Below, piece after piece: positions 1-5,649 of a stretch of DNA of 64,000 nt. Source of the stretch: Candidatus Bathyarchaeota archaeon (GTDB lineage Archaea > Thermoproteota > Bathyarchaeia > Bathyarchaeales > Bathycorpusculaceae). The stretch covers positions 1-64,000 of the forward strand of contig CAWFFH010000004.1 of the NCBI GenBank assembly GCA_963815095.1, read 5' to 3'. The translations under genes and the position numbers were made by a program. The first letter of the stretch is position 1. Each line of letters starts with the position of its first letter. The notes under the pieces are model-generated. The model was given only the letters and a program-made list of their open reading frames with translations, searched no databases and had not been told where the DNA came from.

Positions 1-543
1 ATGCTTAAGTACTACAGCAAAAGCGAACACGGATAAAAGCAGAGGCAGAATTGCTAATGCTGGAAACTCTGGAACGGATGGATTTGCAGAAGGCGTTGGG
101 GTTCCTGTAGATACATAAAACGATAACGGCTCAGACGCTATGCTATCCTCTACTCCACCAAAGTATATGCCATAATATATCCATCGAGCCGCGTATACTA
201 CAACTTGATGTTTACCATTCGATAAGTCGTTTAACGTGACGTTTCCACTAATTGTAACGTTAGAGTGACCATCTAAACAATAACTAAAAGTATCTATTCC
301 CCAGCGTCCTTTTTCACTCACCGATAAGTTTGGTGGTAAATCAAATGTGCCGTTGGTTTGAACAGTAAATACAAGCGAAATGACATTAGAGTAATTTGAA
401 TTAAGAGTTGGGCTTACTATAGAAATCTGAGGTGCTGGAGGAATAGGTAGAGATTGCGCTTTTGTCAGTTCAATTGCTATCGATGAAAATGACATCATTA
501 TTAGAATCAGAACTAAAGCCAAACTCTTACGTAGATTACCCAT
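1..543 (-). CDS. Secreted surface protein with PEF-CTERM-like anchor (3' end runs off the window)
   Basis: Manual translation from the ATG at 543: MGNLRKSLALVLIL...SVPEFPALAILPLLLSVFAFAVVLKH; signal peptide plus PEF-TM tail. Confidence 0.8.
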   Translation of the reverse strand, partial: MGNLRKSLALVLILIMMSFSSIAIELTKAQSLPIPPAPQISIVSPTLNSNYSNVISLVFTVQTNGTFDLPPNLSVSEKGRWGIDTFSYCLDGHSNVTISGNVTLNDLSNGKHQVVVYAARWIYYGIYFGGVEDSIASEPLSFYVSTGTPTPSANPSVPEFPALAILPLLLSVFAFAVVLKH

Positions 544-577
544 AGGTTAAAGATAAAACGGTTTTCAATAAAAGGTT

Positions 578-647
578 ATAGTTAATATTTCATGACTAAC
601 ATTCGTCAAACTTTCTTGACTAAGCCCAGTCAACGTTTCTTGACCAA
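578..647. repeat. Three tandem motif-A palindromes (consensus TTAGTCAA-N6-TTGACTAA), 24-bp period
   Basis: ATAGTTAA-TATTTC-ATGACTAA (578), TTCGTCAA-ACTTTC-TTGACTAA (602), CCAGTCAA-CGTTTC-TTGACCAA (626). Confidence 0.8.
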
Positions 648-676
648 ACAAACGTAGTCTAGATGGGGGAAAAGGT

Positions 677-1228
677 CTAACCACTAATCTTTCTTTTTCT
701 TGTTCCGCATACTATAATTGTCAATCCTGATAAGGCAACACCTAAACCAAGATAGAAAAATTGGAAAGGAAGTAAGGGAACATTTTGGGTTACATCTCTA
801 TATGCTGTCTCTGACCATTGTTTGGTTACTTGCCAATGAACGTCCTTTGAAGTAAATGTGCTTGAACTAATAAGAACAAAGTTGTAGCTTGAGTTTTGAG
901 GGACTGTCCAGTTTATGTTAACGGTTGTTAGGTTTGGATATGATAAGTAAGTTGTCGAACCATTATTAACTGTGAAGTCTATGCGTTTGCTTGAATTTAC
1001 GTTAACTTGAATATTCAAGTAGTCTCCAGCATTTAGAGAAAGTCCATCAGCAACTTTTGACGTTGGAGCTACATCCATCAAAAGACCAAAGCAACCTATA
1101 AGCACCATTGATTTTGGAATTTGATATGCCTCACTTGTGGTTTTGGGAAAGGAAACAAGCGTAAATGCGGTTAATAGAACGCCCAAAATAAGTGCAATAA
1201 TTCCAATAGCCAAGAGTGCTTTTTTCAT
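677..1228 (-). CDS. Membrane protein with N- and C-terminal TM helices and a beta-rich extracellular domain
   Basis: ORF track; hydrophobic ends and basic tail. Confidence 0.75.
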   Translation of the reverse strand: MKKALLAIGIIALILGVLLTAFTLVSFPKTTSEAYQIPKSMVLIGCFGLLMDVAPTSKVADGLSLNAGDYLNIQVNVNSSKRIDFTVNNGSTTYLSYPNLTTVNINWTVPQNSSYNFVLISSSTFTSKDVHWQVTKQWSETAYRDVTQNVPLLPFQFFYLGLGVALSGLTIIVCGTRKRKISG

Positions 1229-1269
1229 TTAATTTGCTTCCGATAACCAAGTTATTAATCTAACTTTTA

Positions 1270-1306
1270 GTTCTATTGACGGAACAAGCTGTTCCAAGTA
1301 TGGAAC
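1270..1306. promoter_or_regulatory. Motif B: tandem GTTCY-N6-RGAAC palindromes (putative operator)
   Basis: GTTCT-ATTGAC-GGAAC aagct GTTCC-AAGTAT-GGAAC, 42 bp upstream of the start at 1228. Confidence 0.7.
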
Positions 1307-1453
1307 ATATAAAAGCTGATTCTAAACATGGTGTGGGTACACCCAAGCGTGGGAAAAGGTCTACTTACTTAGTGAAACAGTTTTTCGCCTTCTCTCATGA
1401 AAGACGGTTCTCTAAGCCAGCGACCAACTTATCCTGAAAGCCAGTAAACCAAA

Positions 1454-2500
1454 CTACGCACCAATCTTTTTTAGCTTTTCTCCATAACGCCTCGTATTAG
1501 CACAGCTATAGACCTCACGCCTACTTAGCATGAACCAAACAATCTTAAGCATCTTACAAGCAACAGCAACAGCAGCCTTCTGATCACCACGCCTAGCCCT
1601 CACACGCTCATAAAACCCAGCCAATTTCTCATCATACTGCACAGCAGTCCTCGCAGCCTCAACCATAACCCACCTCAACAAGCTAGAACCACGCTTAGTA
1701 ATCCTACCAGTATACTCAACATTCCCAGATTGATGCACCGACGGAGCCAAACCAGCCCAAGAAATCAACTTCTTATAACTACTAAACCGCGTTATCGGAC
1801 CAATTTCACTATGAATCAACAATGCACCATAAACATCAACACCAGTCAAGCTAAGTAGCAACCGAACATCCTCATCCTCACAAGCGATTTTTCGAATAGC
1901 TTTATCCACCATCCCGACCTGCAAGTTAATAGATTCAATCAGCGAAAGATGGTTTTCCAAAATCAGTCTATCAAGCTCATTAAGTATCAGTGACCTCATC
2001 CAAGCAATTCCACCTTTACCGAACATATCTGAGAATTCACAACGATAACTATACTTGTCAACGATTGCATGTGCCTTGTTCTTTATAGCCGTGCGCATTC
2101 TAACCAAGCTCAGCCTATGCCTAACTAAACCTCGCATTTCACGTATGCTTCCTTGCGGAACATAGCTTTCAGCAACAAGATCAGCTCTCAGCAAATGCGC
2201 CAAAATCCTAGCATCCACCTTATCAGTTTTTATTTTCGCTGAAGCTATCACTTTAGTCTTCAATGGATTAGCCAGCACTACCTTAATGCTTCTATTATCC
2301 AATGCATCGTATATGCTTAGCCACAAATTCCCTGTAGATTCCATAACAACCTGATCCTCAACAGTTAGCATAGACGTCAAAGACTCTATTCCTTTAGTGT
2401 TGTTTTCAAAGAAGAATTCGCTCTCGATGGCGCCGGTTTGATTCATTATTGCTGCTCTGCATTTGGCTTTGCCAACATCTACTCCTACATATCTCACCAT
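1454..2500 (-). CDS. IS110-family DEDD transposase (bridge recombinase)
   Basis: VGVDVGK, MESTG and KTDKVDA motifs; C-terminal GLAPSVHQSG / ITKRG / A.VAVACK motifs. Confidence 0.95.
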   Translation of the reverse strand: MVRYVGVDVGKAKCRAAIMNQTGAIESEFFFENNTKGIESLTSMLTVEDQVVMESTGNLWLSIYDALDNRSIKVVLANPLKTKVIASAKIKTDKVDARILAHLLRADLVAESYVPQGSIREMRGLVRHRLSLVRMRTAIKNKAHAIVDKYSYRCEFSDMFGKGGIAWMRSLILNELDRLILENHLSLIESINLQVGMVDKAIRKIACEDEDVRLLLSLTGVDVYGALLIHSEIGPITRFSSYKKLISWAGLAPSVHQSGNVEYTGRITKRGSSLLRWVMVEAARTAVQYDEKLAGFYERVRARRGDQKAAVAVACKMLKIVWFMLSRREVYSCANTRRYGEKLKKIGA

Positions 2501-2511
2501 TTTTTTTCTTT

Positions 2512-2637
2512 CTCCTGCTGGCTTTCAGGCTGCAATCTCTCATACGGGCGAATGCCCAGTTCTATAGCAGCTCAGGTCAAGCCCAGTCTAAAAATCGGCC
2601 GCAAGGGCCAAGAAGGCACCGGACTAGCCAGCAAGAG
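2512..2637 (-). ncRNA. Putative IS110 bridge RNA
   Basis: Possible 12-bp closing helix plus two stem-internal-loop-hairpin domains; loop sequences match the target (GCCUUCU, UUUUUAGA) and donor (AUGAGAGA, UAUAG..CU) sites. Confidence 0.8.
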
Positions 2638-4005
2638 TTACTTTCTCACTCGTCTTTCATATAGTCTAAAAAGCAATAACGCGACACATATTACAATAAA
2701 CGCAATGGCGACCAAGAAATAAATACCCACAGACGCAGTTGGTGAAGATTCAGATATTTGATGTTCAAATGGTGGCTCTTCAAAAACAACGGACGAATAT
2801 GCGGTTGCCCAGTCAGGTAAGCTGATACTTACGCTTGAAGTATTAAACTCAGCCAAAAGAGGATAATTATCTCTTCTTGTTACATCGATAATAAAGGGTG
2901 AATCTCCGATGCCATCGCCATTTGCATCTGATCCGTTGTAACTGCTCCAATAATTACCTCTTTCTCCATTGTCAAAAGAACCACCCTGATGTGCTGTCCA
3001 ATTATGGTCTGTTCCAACTATTACAGTGTCCGTGTTTACATCCTGACTATTATTGACAAAATTATTATCATAGAAGACATTGTTTGCCCCAATTCCCCAA
3101 ATGTTTGCGACATAAGCTCCATCTTGGTTTGCGGTTACTTGGTTACCAAAATAGGTGTTGTTGTGTCCTTCCGTGGCGGCTTTTATCCCAACATCATTAT
3201 TCATTATTTCATTTTTTCCCAAAACGCAATTTGACGCATCACTTGATGTGCCTATACCACAGGTGCTATTGCTAATTTGATTGTTAAAAACTATATATCC
3301 ATCGCCGCCTACCGCTATTCCATTGCCATCCGTGACTATGTTTCCGCAAATAATGTCAGTAGTATGGGTAGCAACCATAGACCCAAGTGCATTATTTACC
3401 CAAATATCGCCGATTACCCTGTTTCCAGCGATGATGTTGTTCGATGAACTATAACATTCAACGCTTCCCCTGACTGTGTTTTGGGTAAAAATCTGGTAAG
3501 AACCCATCAAGAAAACAGAGTTATTTTGAATGATGTTACCTGTTATCAGAGTATTGTTTCCGTTAATAAGATAGAGACCACCCATACTTGTGGCATTGCT
3601 CGAAAATGTGAAGCCTGAAATCTTAACGTTATCAGCGGTAACTTCAAGTGAATTTTCGTAACTGGAAACTTGACTCCAATCAAATGGAATCGGATTATCG
3701 TATTCTATCCATTTAGGGCTAAGTTTGATTTGAGTAGTGGATTGGTCTTCACCTTTGAGCCAAACAGTTTTGTTAATAACTAAACTTGATTCAAAATACG
3801 TACCGCTTTTAACAAAAATAGTGTCGCCATTTGTAGCGTTTCCTATCGCTGTGGTAACAGTCGGGTAGTCATCTGGAACAACGATTGTTCTACTTTGGGC
3901 TTTAACGGTCGAAGGTGGTAGAAAAACTAAGGACATAAAGAATAATAAAACAAGAAATAATGCGAAGGTTTTGCCGATTTTGCCCATGCTTAGTAATAGG
4001 TACAT
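2638..4005 (-). CDS. NosD/right-handed beta-helix surface protein; C-terminal tail replaced by the IS insertion
   Basis: IVVPDDYPT, GDTIFVKSGTY, GNYWSSYNGSDANGDGIGD, DNYPL motifs; likely start MGKIGK at 3987. Confidence 0.85.
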   Translation of the reverse strand: MYLLLSMGKIGKTFALFLVLLFFMSLVFLPPSTVKAQSRTIVVPDDYPTVTTAIGNATNGDTIFVKSGTYFESSLVINKTVWLKGEDQSTTQIKLSPKWIEYDNPIPFDWSQVSSYENSLEVTADNVKISGFTFSSNATSMGGLYLINGNNTLITGNIIQNNSVFLMGSYQIFTQNTVRGSVECYSSSNNIIAGNRVIGDIWVNNALGSMVATHTTDIICGNIVTDGNGIAVGGDGYIVFNNQISNSTCGIGTSSDASNCVLGKNEIMNNDVGIKAATEGHNNTYFGNQVTANQDGAYVANIWGIGANNVFYDNNFVNNSQDVNTDTVIVGTDHNWTAHQGGSFDNGERGNYWSSYNGSDANGDGIGDSPFIIDVTRRDNYPLLAEFNTSSVSISLPDWATAYSSVVFEEPPFEHQISESSPTASVGIYFLVAIAFIVICVALLLFRLYERRVRK

Positions 4006-5372
4006 AGAAGCGTTAAAAGTGTTTTTGTATAGGTTTCTTGACTAAGTGAATATTTTTTAGTCCAAGTTTCTTGACTAAACCATTGATTACCCTTCGTACA
4101 ATAAACTAACAACCCAGCAGCCACAACCATCGTAGTAAGCAACAATAGTGATGCCCAGAAGGGAACCTCTGGAACAGTGGGAGTCGGAGTTGGCGAAGGT
4201 GTTGGGATTGATGGCAAAACGGATGAAATATTATAAGCGTAAAGGTTTCCCTCATAAGGTTGAACATATAGAATACCGTTTGCGTAGCTAAAAGAAGACA
4301 AGTTAATTCCACCGTTTTGATTAGTCCAAAGCGGATAAGTCCAAAGTTGTACACCGTTCGTTATATTTAGAGCATAGAGGATATCGCCATTGACAGCTGC
4401 ACCAGCAATGCATACTACGTTATCAATAACTACAGGGGATGATTCTATCTGAATAATATTTGATTTCCAGATTTGAGCATTGTTGGAAGCATTGATGGAA
4501 TAAATGTTGTTGCCATATAATTGAGCCTCTATGTAAACCTCATCAGGTCCAGCAACAGCTGAAGTGCCGCCAACAATATCGGCGATAATGCTGCGGTCAA
4601 TGTCTAACTTTTTACCGTTAGTTGCGTTTAAAGCAAAGTATTCGACAGCTTCATTATTGATGTAAACTACGCCGTTGAGAACCTTAGGGGAGCTATCAAT
4701 CCATAAACCTGTATCGTAATTCCAAAGCAAGATGCCTGTAGAAGCGTTTATGGCATATACGTGGTGGTCGCCACTTCCGATGAAGACAACTCCATTGGAG
4801 AAGACTGGAGCTGTATAAATTTGCCAAAAGGAAGAACCTAATATGCAATGCCAAAGTTGGATGCCGTTTGAAGCGTTAAAAGCGTAAACGCTGTTATCGA
4901 TAGAGCCAATGAAGACAATTCCATTAATTACGGATGAGGGATGACTGAGGTGTCCTATTGGGGATTTCCAAATTATGTCCCCGGTGGAAGCGTTTAGAGC
5001 GTAAACGTTGGTGATTGAACCGATGTATATTATTCCGCTGGAAACGGTTAGCGAAGGAGTAAAAGGGGAGATTGTTTGAATGTCGGAGGAAGAAACCTCT
5101 GAATATGCGTTAAAGCTCCATAAGACGTTGGCGTTTTCATTGTCTAACGCGTAGATGCTGCCATTTTTTGTGCTCACGTAAATTATGTTTTTGGCAGTGG
5201 ATAAAGAATAAGCTAAATCATTTGAAGAGTTCCAAATGACTGTTCGAGTAATTGAAACAGATGGGTTTGTGCTATTTTGAGCACTTGCAGGGTTAACTAT
5301 CAGCGTCGTCAGGCATGACATAGAAATGATGAAAGTAAGGAATAATGCGAAAGTCTTGTTGGTTTTACCCAT
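3990..5372 (-). CDS. PQQ-like (BamB-type) beta-propeller surface protein with PT linker and PEF-like anchor
   Basis: Repeats of V(F/Y)IGS.D..VYA.NAS.G...[16 protein letters not shown] followed by a TM helix; the tail reads through motif A. Confidence 0.85.
   Translation of the reverse strand: MGKTNKTFALFLTFIISMSCLTTLIVNPASAQNSTNPSVSITRTVIWNSSNDLAYSLSTAKNIIYVSTKNGSIYALDNENANVLWSFNAYSEVSSSDIQTISPFTPSLTVSSGIIYIGSITNVYALNASTGDIIWKSPIGHLSHPSSVINGIVFIGSIDNSVYAFNASNGIQLWHCILGSSFWQIYTAPVFSNGVVFIGSGDHHVYAINASTGILLWNYDTGLWIDSSPKVLNGVVYINNEAVEYFALNATNGKKLDIDRSIIADIVGGTSAVAGPDEVYIEAQLYGNNIYSINASNNAQIWKSNIIQIESSPVVIDNVVCIAGAAVNGDILYALNITNGVQLWTYPLWTNQNGGINLSSFSYANGILYVQPYEGNLYAYNISSVLPSIPTPSPTPTPTVPEVPFWASLLLLTTMVVAAGLLVYCTKGNQWFSQETWTKKYSLSQETYTKTLLTLLCTYY
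4024..4078. repeat. Two motif-A palindromes
   Basis: TTTGTATA-GGTTTC-TTGACTAA (4024) and TTAGTCCA-AGTTTC-TTGACTAA (4057). Confidence 0.75.
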
Positions 5373-5408
5373 ATTTAGTAATAGGGGTATAGAGGCGATA
5401 AAAGACTA

Positions 5409-5432: not shown

Positions 5433-5471
5433 TCATTGCTTCAAGTTAGCGGTTTTTCGATGCCTTCTAAA
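5433..5471 (-). pseudogene. Orphan C-terminal tail of a surface-protein gene (FRRHRKTANLKQ*)
   Basis: Minus strand reads TTT AGA AGG CAT CGA AAA ACC GCT AAC TTG AAG CAA TGA with no upstream ORF. Confidence 0.65.
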
Positions 5472-5649
5472 AGTTGCCTGAAATAGGTTAATCCATTAGC
5501 AGCTTTTTAGTTTTAAGAAGCCCGACAAAAAAGGCTGTGACGAAAAAAAGCGATGATTCGAAATGAGCCTATCGGATAACCTAATCGAACATCTTTGGGA
5601 AGCATCGCAGTCACTCTTTTTTAGCTTCACAAATGATAGGAATCTTTGT

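What the first reader, a model, noticed from the sequence alone, without database searches (positions are those of the whole stretch)
1391..2672. Archaeal IS110 with a decodable bridge RNA whose loops match its target and donor
Seen: the element has a TCT core at both ends. The empty target on + is GCCTTCTAAAAA and the circle junction (donor) is ATATAGTCTCTCATG. The minus-strand RNA from 2637 to 2512 can fold into two internal-loop hairpins. Loop 1 (around GGCC-CUUGC-GGCC) carries GCCUUCU (2617-2611), identical to left target plus core, and UUUUUAGA (2594-2587), complementary to core plus right target. Loop 2 (around GGGC-AUUC-GCCC) carries UAUAGaaCU, an imperfect match to the left donor, and AUGAGAGA (2543-2536), complementary to core plus right donor. 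Known: IS110 recombinases such as IS621 use a bispecific bridge RNA with a CT core. Inference: a compact (348 aa) programmable archaeal bridge recombinase. The CT-core strand is antisense to the transposase, and the element has subterminal IRs together with an upstream RNA.
Basis: partly seen in the sequence, partly recalled or inferred. Interest (0 to 1): 0.9.

Follow-up and report, generated by a model that had tools for sequence, protein, structure and literature searches.

The report
Archaeal insertion sequence with bridge RNA
This is a jumping gene of the IS110/IS1111 family in an uncultured archaeon whose upstream RNA carries readable guides for its insertion site and its own ends, an archaeal example of the already known bridge-RNA mechanism.

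Summary
Window 1394-2665 is a 1272-bp insertion sequence flanked by a CT core. It encodes a 348-aa DEDD/Ser IS110-family transposase on the minus strand and has a 165-nt upstream leader. That leader folds into a closing stem with two internal-loop hairpins.

Loop 1 carries GCCUUCU and UUUUUAGA, which match the two halves of the insertion site. Loop 2 carries UAUAG and AUGAGAGA, which match the two element ends. The genome has four near-identical copies, all in the same target.

In about 24 relatives (43-76% protein identity, Bathyarchaeia and Nitrososphaerota) the hairpins are conserved with compensatory changes. The loop sequences change in step with the flanks, giving 14 distinct two-sided targets. 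A haloarchaeal plasmid element (47%) decodes the same way by eye.

The bridge-RNA reading is therefore well supported by natural covariation, but not by direct RNA or recombination data.

The element is not IS621-like in detail. It has 10-bp subterminal inverted repeats, 7/3-bp terminal extensions and the IS1111-type guide order, yet its RNA lies upstream. Published work already notes this combination as a rare exception.

Verdict: a real new member of a known kind, of moderate interest.

The parts
1387..1391 (.). Target flank on the transposase-distal side (GCCTT on +), paired by the 5' side of loop 1
   Evidence: Shared by all 4 copies in the genome. It is the reverse complement of the guide at 2617-2611.
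1392..1393 (.). Core dinucleotide CT (AG in transposase sense), left copy on +
   Evidence: The same dinucleotide flanks both ends. Relatives show a 2-bp core, AG or TG.
1394..1453 (-). Right end of the element in transposase sense: 3-bp extension GAG (1394-1396) and subterminal inverted repeat (1397-1406)
   Evidence: GYCTTTCATGAG is conserved at this end in relatives. The 10-bp repeat ATGAAAGACG/CGTCTTTCAT was read.
1454..2500 (-). IS110-family DEDD/Ser transposase (bridge recombinase), 348 aa
2501..2665 (-). Left end / 165-nt non-coding leader that encodes the RNA
2512..2637 (-). Predicted bridge RNA: closing stem (2637-2626 with 2523-2512), target-binding hairpin (2625-2580), donor-binding hairpin (2571-2529)
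   Evidence: RNAfold. Covariance model R1 and pair counts give 97.6% of cells paired and 12 of 26 pairs with compensatory change. The ends of the RNA are not mapped.
2611..2617 (-). Loop 1, 5' side guide GCCUUCU, complementary to the transposase-sense strand of core plus right flank
2585..2594 (-). Loop 1, 3' side guide UUUUUAG plus ACU: identical to left flank plus core, then to the first 3 element bases (handshake-like)
   Evidence: The handshake concept is from Hiraizumi 2024.
2562..2566 (-). Loop 2, 5' side guide UAUAG, pairs with element bases 2-6 (CTATA)
   Evidence: Covaries in relatives: CTTTA/UAAAG, CCTTA/UAAGG, TTTTA/UAAAA, CTATA/UAUAG.
2536..2543 (-). Loop 2, 3' side guide AUGAGAGA, identical to right-end bases ATGAG plus core AG plus A
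   Evidence: The core part matches the element's core in 23 of 24 distinct elements.
2651..2660 (.). Subterminal inverted repeat at the left end (CGTCTTTCAT on +), followed by the 5-bp extension 2661-2665
   Evidence: Read. Conserved as TTATGAAAGRC in relatives.
2666..2667 (.). Core dinucleotide CT, right copy on +
2668..2672 (.). Target flank AAAAA on +, paired by the 3' side of loop 1

Best explanation
Window 1394-2665 plus a flanking CT core is an active or recently active insertion sequence of the IS110 family in the broad sense, in a Bathyarchaeia genome. Its 348-aa DEDD/Ser recombinase is guided by an RNA of about 126 nt transcribed from the leader upstream of the gene.

The RNA has a closing stem and two hairpins, each with an internal loop. 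The two sides of loop 1 pair with opposite strands of the insertion site. The 5' side pairs with the transposase-sense strand of core plus right flank, over 7-8 nt here and up to 11 nt in relatives. The 3' side is identical to left flank plus core, so it pairs with the other strand. It then runs 2-3 nt into the element's own first bases, like the handshake guides of IS621. Loop 2 pairs in the same way with the joined ends of the excised circle.

Recombination at the 2-bp core inserts the element without a longer duplication. In this genome the programmed site is the codons for a '...LLLF-RRHRK' tail behind a C-terminal membrane helix.

What is shown: the anatomy, four copies in one target, the conserved structure, and guide/flank/core/end covariation. 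What is inferred by homology with IS621 and ISEc11: the transcript, its ends, circle formation and catalysis.
For: Enzyme. PF01548 (E = 4.8e-28) and PF02371 (E = 7.4e-22). NF033542 'IS110 family RNA-guided transposase' scores 243.8 bits against a cut-off of 140. The IS621 structure 8wt6 matches at E = 6.1e-15, with all five catalytic residues aligned.

Mobility and site specificity. The genome has 4 copies with 0-1 mismatch over 1272 bp. All lie between ...GCCTTCT and CTAAAAAG, with unrelated DNA beyond about 15 bp. An uninterrupted paralogous site with a single TCT lies at window 5447-5475.

Structure. The sense strand folds at -54.3 kcal/mol (z = -2.54) and the antisense strand at -45.1 (z = -1.39). 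On 27 distinct sequences 97.6% of cells are paired, against 24-47% when partners are slid. Twelve of 26 pairs show change on both sides, against 3.0 +/- 1.2 in shuffles (0 of 500 reach it). Two U:G pairs are kept in 25 of 27 sequences, and these would be A.C on the other strand.

Guides. The contiguous Watson-Crick run between the loop-1 5' side and core plus right flank averages 7.48 in 21 cognate pairs, against 1.70 in 502 non-cognate pairs. The loop-1 3' side against left flank plus core averages 6.17 (n = 23), against 1.97 (n = 540). Fourteen distinct two-sided targets were seen. They include half-site retargeting: L034 and L038 share the left half and differ in the right half and its guide. 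The loop-2 core matches the element core (AG or TG) in 23 of 24 elements. The loop-2 5' guide is fully Watson-Crick to element bases 2-6 in 17 of 24.

Chance. Both loop-1 words occur together in 1 of 200,000 shuffles of the leader.

Wider family. A haloarchaeal plasmid element (47% identity) decodes the same way by eye.
Against: There is no direct evidence of the RNA. The only RNA-library signal is one 151-nt contig (window 2467-2616, 2 mismatches and 1 gap) from one estuary metatranscriptome. It cannot show strand, ends or even transcription.

No circle-junction or empty-site joint appeared in 3 DNA runs. Those runs are kept as contigs, which drop rare forms.

The loop-2 5' side does not pair with the core. 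AACU or its variants sit there and do not follow the AG/TG change, unlike IS621, where every guide includes the core. The two bases after the loop-2 3' guide fit neither the target nor the donor consistently.

Three of about 24 elements deviate. L042 has no in-register match, L053 has a core mismatch in the 3' guide, and L036 has an indel in the 5' guide match.

Relatives are kin, so the counts overstate the number of independent events. RNAalifold on the plain MAFFT alignment did not find the loop-1 hairpin by itself. I supplied that structure by hand and the alignment was then fitted to it.
Confidence: 0.85

Rival explanations
1. The RNA works as a seekRNA in the narrow IS1111 sense. Only loop 1 guides target choice, while the element ends are recognised by the protein through the subterminal inverted repeats. 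The loop-2 complementarity would then be a by-product or serve another role.
For: The element has IS1111-type ends: a 10-bp subterminal repeat and 7/3-bp extensions. Siddiquee 2024 describes seekRNAs of 70-100 nt with target matches and stresses end recognition as a family difference. The loop-2 5' side does not pair with the core, and most loop-2 bases are nearly invariant, so covariation events are few.
Against: The loop-2 3' side switches AG/TG together with the core in 23 of 24 elements. The 5-nt loop-2 5' guide follows three different changes in element bases 2-4. Durrant 2024 also predicts donor loops in IS1111-group RNAs.
Confidence: 0.08
2. The leader hairpins are only a 5'-UTR or DNA-level regulatory structure for transposase expression. 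Site choice would be made by the protein, and the loop/flank matches would be incidental.
For: The GGAG ribosome-binding motif lies in or next to the 3' strand of the closing stem, so folding could affect translation. There are no RNA data.
Against: In 14 different targets the guides change in step with the flanks. The joint chance match is 1 in 200,000. The homologous enzymes IS621 and ISEc11 need the RNA.
Confidence: 0.03
3. The element is a correctly decoded but now immobile fossil in this genome.
For: No circle or empty-site contigs were found in 3 runs. No exact unoccupied copy of the 13-mer target was found.
Against: The four copies differ by at most 1 base and all have intact 348-aa frames, which implies recent transposition. 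Contigs cannot show rare forms. One exact unoccupied 12-mer exists at C3:414942.
Confidence: 0.1

Closest known systems
IS621 (E. coli; IS110 group) and its bridge RNA
   Same: It has a DEDD plus Ser recombinase with aligned catalytic residues. The RNA is encoded upstream of the gene, with the target-binding loop first and the donor-binding loop second. Each loop pairs with both strands around a 2-bp core, which is CT in the window's element. The 3' target guide runs on into donor bases, like the handshake guides.
   Different: The guide order relative to the transposase strand is mirrored. [quoted passage not shown] This element has a 10-bp subterminal inverted repeat, against 2-3 bp in the IS110 group. 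Its left-donor guide omits the core. Protein similarity is low (58.9 bits). The host is archaeal, so the sigma-70 junction promoter of IS621 cannot apply.
IS1111-group elements with seekRNA (ISEc11, ISKpn4, ISPa11; Siddiquee et al. 2024)
   Same: It shares subterminal inverted repeats of about 10 bp and asymmetric terminal extensions of 7 bp (counting the core) and 3 bp. [quoted passage not shown]
   Different: Their non-coding region and RNA lie downstream of the transposase gene, whereas here they lie upstream. Whether the transposase falls in the IS1111 clade was not tested.
ISMtsp17 and the 'few' IS1111-type elements with an upstream non-coding region
   Same: Siddiquee 2024 states that ISMtsp17, an IS1111 relative, has its non-coding region upstream. 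That is the same combination as here.
   Different: I saw only that one sentence. No RNA or guides are described for it in the passages read, and its sequence was not compared.
Unnamed 'IS110 family transposase' element on Halanaeroarchaeum sulfurireducens plasmid pHSR2-01 (NZ_CP008875.1)
   Same: It has 46.8% protein identity. The leader is upstream, and the by-eye decoding is the same: 5' guide GUCUAAACA against right flank TGTTTAGAC, and 3' guide GGCCUUGACU against the left junction.
   Different: The RNA is too diverged for model R1 (8.7 bits, E = 0.08). The record annotates only the transposase. It comes from a cultured haloarchaeon, so it could be tested at the bench.

Membership tests
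IS110 family in the broad sense (DEDD transposase, RNA-guided) | [quoted passage not shown] | tested here: met
   98.3 and 78 bits, both above the cut-offs. NF033542 at 243.8 bits against a cut-off of 140.
IS110 family in the broad sense (DEDD transposase, RNA-guided) | Catalytic D-E-D-D in the RuvC-like domain and a conserved Ser in the Tnp domain | tested here: met
   D8/E54/D93/D96/S258 align with IS621 D11/E60/D102/D105/S241 (chain numbering is +2). These residues are invariant in alignment A1.
IS110 family in the broad sense (DEDD transposase, RNA-guided) | Sequence-specific insertion around a short core, without a longer target duplication | tested here: met
   Four of 4 copies lie in the same 13-15-bp site with a CT core. 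An uninterrupted paralogous site has a single TCT.
IS110 family in the broad sense (DEDD transposase, RNA-guided) | Non-coding end encodes a structured RNA with two internal loops complementary to target and donor | tested here: met
   This is shown at the sequence and covariation level only.
IS110 family in the broad sense (DEDD transposase, RNA-guided) | The RNA is made, binds the recombinase and is required for recombination; a circular intermediate forms | not testable with these tools
   There is only one 151-nt metatranscriptome contig, and no joints were seen in contigs.
IS110 group (IS621-like) | Long non-coding region and RNA upstream of the transposase gene | tested here: met
   The leader is 165 nt and the downstream end is 60 nt.
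IS110 group (IS621-like) | No subterminal inverted repeats, or only very short ones of 2-3 bp | tested here: not met
   A perfect 10-bp repeat lies at 1397-1406 / 2651-2660. It is conserved in relatives.
IS110 group (IS621-like) | In the RNA, the bottom-strand match (left guide) precedes the top-strand complement | tested here: not met
   Here the top-strand (transposase-sense) complement comes first in both loops.
IS1111 group | Subterminal inverted repeats of 7-17 bp, usually 11-13 | tested here: met
   10 bp.
IS1111 group | Terminal extensions of 7 bp (left) and 3 bp (right) beyond the repeats | tested here: met
   The left extension is AG+ACTAT = 7 if the core is counted with the left end, and the right extension is GAG = 3. 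How the authors count the core is my inference.
IS1111 group | [quoted passage not shown] | tested here: met
IS1111 group | Long non-coding region and RNA downstream of the transposase gene | tested here: not met
   The RNA is upstream. Siddiquee 2024 records such exceptions.
IS1111 group | Transposase falls in the IS1111 clade | not tested
   No labelled reference set was available. Two attempts to use other elements as controls led nowhere.

The most novel reading that the evidence does not exclude
This archaeal clade (Bathyarchaeia, Nitrososphaerota and probably haloarchaea) combines IS1111-type ends and guide order with an IS110-type upstream RNA that holds both loops inside one closing stem. 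It may be close to the arrangement from which the two bacterial groups diverged when the RNA gene moved between the ends. If so, it would be the natural place to test the proposed descent of archaeal C/D-box guide RNPs (Nop5) from IS110 recombinases. It would also be a source of bridge recombinases that use archaeal promoters and conditions.
Probability: 0.15. Interest if true: 0.6.

Novelty: new member of a known kind. Interest (0 to 1): 0.35.

Why it matters
Bridge and seek RNAs are a recently discovered way to programme DNA recombination, and almost all work so far is on bacterial elements.

This locus and its relatives give a clean, fully readable archaeal example. They also provide a natural series of 14 retargeted guide/target pairs, including changes in only one half-site. 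That is useful for learning the design rules of the IS1111-type geometry.

The clade does not fit either published subgroup definition cleanly. A related element on a plasmid of a cultured haloarchaeon offers a route to bench tests.

For genome annotation, it shows that the 165-nt leader of such 'IS110 family transposase' genes should be annotated as an RNA gene. It also predicts each element's insertion site.

Tried and rejected
Rfam, run with E-values on 1000-3200, gave only 4 chance-level hits and no bridge-RNA family.

RNAalifold on the plain MAFFT alignment found the closing stem and the loop-2 hairpin but missed the loop-1 hairpin, because the variable guides misalign. I replaced it with a hand-written structure and a covariance model.

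My first regex for the right end picked internal sites. I corrected it.

I tried multi-copy bacterial relatives as an in-session control for IS621-type geometry (Plantactinospora 7 loci, Sansalvadorimonas 8, Cyclobacteriaceae 3). Their flanks share no readable target, so I dropped them.

The Rhizobium plasmid element (36% identity) could not be decoded by eye. The E. coli/Citrobacter plasmid elements annotated as IS5708 family have a downstream non-coding region, and their guides could not be decoded either. Their value as an IS1111 control is therefore nil, and the guide-order comparison rests on published text.

In the three DNA runs laid, no circle or empty-site joints were seen. These runs are contigs, so the result is not evidence either way. 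The single RNA contig in X20 is only a weak hint.

The exact 13-mer target has no unoccupied copy. The 8 one-mismatch sites equal the count for the reversed-pattern control.

A transposase tree to place the clade in IS110 or IS1111 was not built, for lack of labelled references.

Supplementary files of the papers are closed, so Durrant 2024's supplementary tables may already list these archaeal elements.

No paper decoding an archaeal bridge RNA appeared in the listings.
Full report
WHAT IS THERE

On the minus strand of window 1454-2500 lies a 348-aa open frame. It carries the two Pfam domains of IS110-family transposases, PF01548 (E = 4.8e-28) and PF02371 (E = 7.4e-22). It scores 243.8 bits (cut-off 140) on NCBIfam NF033542, 'IS110 family RNA-guided transposase'. 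Its best solved relative is the IS621 recombinase (8wt6, E = 6.1e-15). In that alignment D8, E54, D93, D96 and S258 stand opposite the IS621 catalytic D11, E60, D102, D105 and S241 (the chain numbering is offset by 2).

The element interior is 1394-2665 (1272 bp). CT stands on both sides of it, at 1392-1393 and 2666-2667.

COPIES AND TARGET

The window's own genome (2.69 Mb, 9 contigs) holds four copies that differ by at most one base. All four lie between ...GCCTTCT and CTAAAAAG, and the DNA beyond about 15 bp is unrelated. They are therefore separate insertions into one site.

Three of the four sites are the 3' ends of long open frames (more than 340 aa upstream). Each ends in a hydrophobic helix followed by LLLF-RRHRK or LLLF-RRRK. 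With the element in place the frames end in LLLF-RLYERRVRK*, read from the element's first bases. The window's copy interrupts a NosD-like surface protein gene at 2638-4005.

An uninterrupted paralogous site lies at window 5447-5475: TTTTCGATGCCTTCTAAAAG, with a single TCT and one mismatch in the A-run.

The exact 13-mer has no unoccupied copy. The exact 12-mer has one, at contig 3 position 414942.

THE RNA

The 165-nt leader (2665-2501, minus strand) folds at -54.3 kcal/mol (z = -2.54) into a closing stem (2637-2626 with 2523-2512) that encloses two hairpins, each with an internal loop. The opposite strand folds worse, at -45.1 kcal/mol with z = -1.39.

In 200,000 shuffles of the leader, GCCTTCT occurred 1070 times, TTTTTAGA 433 times, both together once, and ATGAGAGA 928 times.

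Rfam has no family for this RNA.

RELATIVES

A search of 101 genomes of the same GTDB family found the transposase in 13, the own genome included.

A scan of one genome per prokaryote species found 255 stretches encoding a relative, of which the best 80 were kept. The closest relatives (43-76% identity) are all archaeal metagenome-assembled genomes titled Bathyarchaeia/Bathyarchaeota, Nitrososphaerota, Nitrosopumilales, Nitrosotalea or Promethearchaeati. Bacterial relatives start at 36% or lower.

One of these records is the same contig as a genome of the window's own GTDB family (L006 = L027). The 'archaeal' label for the window therefore rests on that kinship.

A covariance model was built from 21 leaders with a hand-written structure. 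It found 32 matches in 48 sources, 27 of them distinct. On these, 97.6% of pair cells are standard pairs, against 24-47% when the 3' partners are slid by 1-3 columns. Twelve of 26 pairs have changes on both sides, against 3.0 +/- 1.2 in shuffles (0 of 500 reach it). Two U:G pairs are kept in 25 of 27 sequences, and on the other strand they would be A.C. This points to a transcript of the transposase strand. The alignment was fitted to my structure, so it leans towards it. The slid controls are the fairer comparison.

GUIDES FOLLOW FLANKS

All relatives share the same ends: (A/T/G)C(T/C)TTATGAAAG(A/G)C at the left and G(T/C)CTTTCATGAG at the right. The core is 2 bp, AG in four elements and TG in the rest.

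In transposase sense, the 5' side of loop 1 is the reverse complement of core plus right flank. The 3' side of loop 1 is identical to left flank plus core.

I measured the contiguous match from the core outwards. Four divergent rows were dropped because their ends could not be placed: L055 and its duplicate L014, L047 and L046. Elements with fewer than 10 (right) or 8 (left) flank bases on the contig were also dropped. The results were:
- 5' side: mean 7.48 in 21 cognate pairs (range 0-11), against 1.70 in 502 non-cognate pairs.
- 3' side: mean 6.17 in 23 cognate pairs (range 0-8), against 1.97 in 540 non-cognate pairs.

The roughly 4-6% of non-cognate pairs that reach 6 are kin sharing a target.

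Fourteen different two-sided targets are represented. Several elements share one half-site and differ in the other together with its guide. L034 and L038 are one case, and L033 and L036 another. This is natural half-site retargeting.

Three elements deviate. L042 has no in-register match, and its right end carries an extra TGAG, as in L050. L053 has one mismatch in the core part of the 3' guide. L036 has an indel in the 5' guide match.

LOOP 2

The 3' side reads AUGAG plus core, and the core part equals the element's own core in 23 of 24 distinct elements. The exception, L042, is offset by one base in the alignment.

The first five bases of the 5' side pair with element bases 2-6, fully Watson-Crick in 17 of 24 and otherwise with G:T wobbles or a single mismatch. 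Three positions change together: CTATA/UAUAG, CCTTA/UAAGG, TTTTA/UAAAA and CTTTA/UAAAG.

Two things do not fit the IS621 picture. The bases after that 5-nt guide (AACU and variants) do not follow the core. The two bases after the 3' guide fit neither donor nor target consistently.

HANDSHAKE

The 3' guide of loop 1 continues with ACU, which is the first three bases of the element rather than of the uninterrupted target. It matches 3 of 3 bases in 16 of 25 elements, 2 of 3 in 8, and 1 of 3 in 1. In L027 and L028 both the guide and the element read AUU/ATT.

This is what the handshake guides of IS621 do (Hiraizumi 2024, passages). However, there is only one covariation event, and these bases could also extend the basal stem of the hairpin. 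I rate it as consistent with a handshake, not shown.

HOW IT COMPARES WITH WHAT IS KNOWN

In IS621 the left end carries the right-donor sequence and the RNA gene. [quoted passage not shown] The 3' side pairs with the top strand (Durrant 2024, passages; Nature 2026 PMC13626964, passages).

Here the order is the mirror image.

Siddiquee et al. 2024 (abstract and passages) report exactly this reversal as the difference between the two groups. In IS1111 the top-strand complement comes first, and in IS110 it comes second. They describe IS1111 elements as having subterminal inverted repeats of usually 11-13 bp, with terminal extensions of 7 and 3 bp. The window's element has a 10-bp repeat (1397-1406 / 2651-2660). 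Its extensions are AG+ACTAT (7, if the core is counted on the left, which is my inference) and GAG (3).

By ends and guide order it is therefore IS1111-type. By the position of the RNA it is IS110-type. It fails one published criterion of each group (see the membership table).

The same paper says that 'a few' IS1111-type elements, ISMtsp17 for one, have the non-coding region upstream. The combination has therefore been seen before, although no guides are described for it in the passages I read.

Durrant 2024 predicted bridge RNAs in 85.7% of IS110-group and 93.0% of IS1111-group elements of ISfinder, and used archaeal genomes in its database. Vaysset et al. 2024 count 662 archaeal IS110 recombinases in several clades.

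None of the listings showed a paper that decodes an archaeal bridge RNA.

A CULTURED RELATIVE

The best plasmid match is an element on pHSR2-01 of Halanaeroarchaeum sulfurireducens HSR2, at 46.8% identity and annotated only as 'IS110 family transposase'.

By eye its leader has the same logic. The 3' guide GGCCUUGACU equals the left junction GGGCCTTG|ACT. The 5' guide GUCUAAACA is the reverse complement of the right flank TGTTTAGAC. Model R1 barely sees it (8.7 bits, E = 0.08), so this decoding is by inspection only.

EXPRESSION AND MOBILITY DATA

Four soil-metagenome DNA runs of one study hold 0.78-0.87 of the sampled words. They may be the source of the assembly and are not independent support.

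When three of them were laid, contigs covered the element, and the loose ends were the flanks of the other three copies. There was no circle or empty-site joint, but contigs drop rare forms.

One estuary metatranscriptome run has a single 151-nt contig on 2467-2616, covering loop 2, part of loop 1 and the first codons, with 2 mismatches and 1 gap. It is a hint that a close relative's leader is in an RNA library and nothing more.

The covariance model finds no solo RNA genes in the genome, only the four copies inside elements.

VERDICT

It remains unproven at the bench.

It is a new, well-resolved archaeal member of a known kind, with an end/RNA arrangement that is rare but already noted. My confidence in the mechanism is 0.85 and my interest score is 0.35.

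Noticed in passing
window 5447-5475 (+): This is an uninterrupted paralogue of the insertion site, TTTTCGATGCCTTCTAAAAG. It shares at least 15 bp with the flanks of the occupied sites but has one mismatch in the A-run. It is not occupied, and the frame around it has stops, so it may be a gene remnant.
   Followed up: partly
window 2638-2667 (-) and the copies at G000 C3:1060825 and C3:1398577: In three of four copies the element sits in the last codons of a long gene for a protein with a C-terminal membrane helix. It replaces the basic tail RRHRK.../RRRK... with its own RLYERRVRK-stop, so the host protein keeps a basic tail. This may keep the insertions cheap for the host.
   Followed up: partly
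window 2501-2523 (-): The GGAG ribosome-binding motif of the transposase gene lies within the 3' strand of the RNA's closing stem, 12 nt before the ATG. Folding or processing of the RNA and translation of the transposase may therefore be coupled.
   Followed up: no
window 2637-2665 (-); first bases of the left end in all relatives: The conserved terminal TTTATGAAAG (CTATATGAAAG in the window) looks like an archaeal TATA box placed about 25-30 nt before the first base of the closing stem. In the circle, the right end plus core would lie where a BRE would be. This is speculative and was not tested.
   Followed up: no
L055:1335-1484 (= L014:1546-1695): This is a leader-like sequence whose loop-2 hairpin and 3' half of loop 1 are nearly those of L051, while its 5' third is unrelated. 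It sits upstream of a transposase only 36% identical to the window's. It may be a chimera or a remnant.
   Followed up: no
L042 and L050, right ends: The right end reads CATGAGTGAG, with an extra TGAG, and in L042 the loop-1 guides do not match the flanks in register. These may be decayed or mis-joined copies.
   Followed up: no
L061 (Sansalvadorimonas MAG): Two copies of a distant bacterial IS110-family element lie about 18 bp apart in tandem. Eight loci of this element show no shared flanking target.
   Followed up: no
window 1-5400 (-): There is a run of genes for secreted or anchored proteins with N-terminal signal-like and C-terminal hydrophobic segments: the 1-543 fragment, 677-1228, NosD-like 2638-4005 and 3990-5372. 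This is the gene class whose tails provide the element's target.
   Followed up: no
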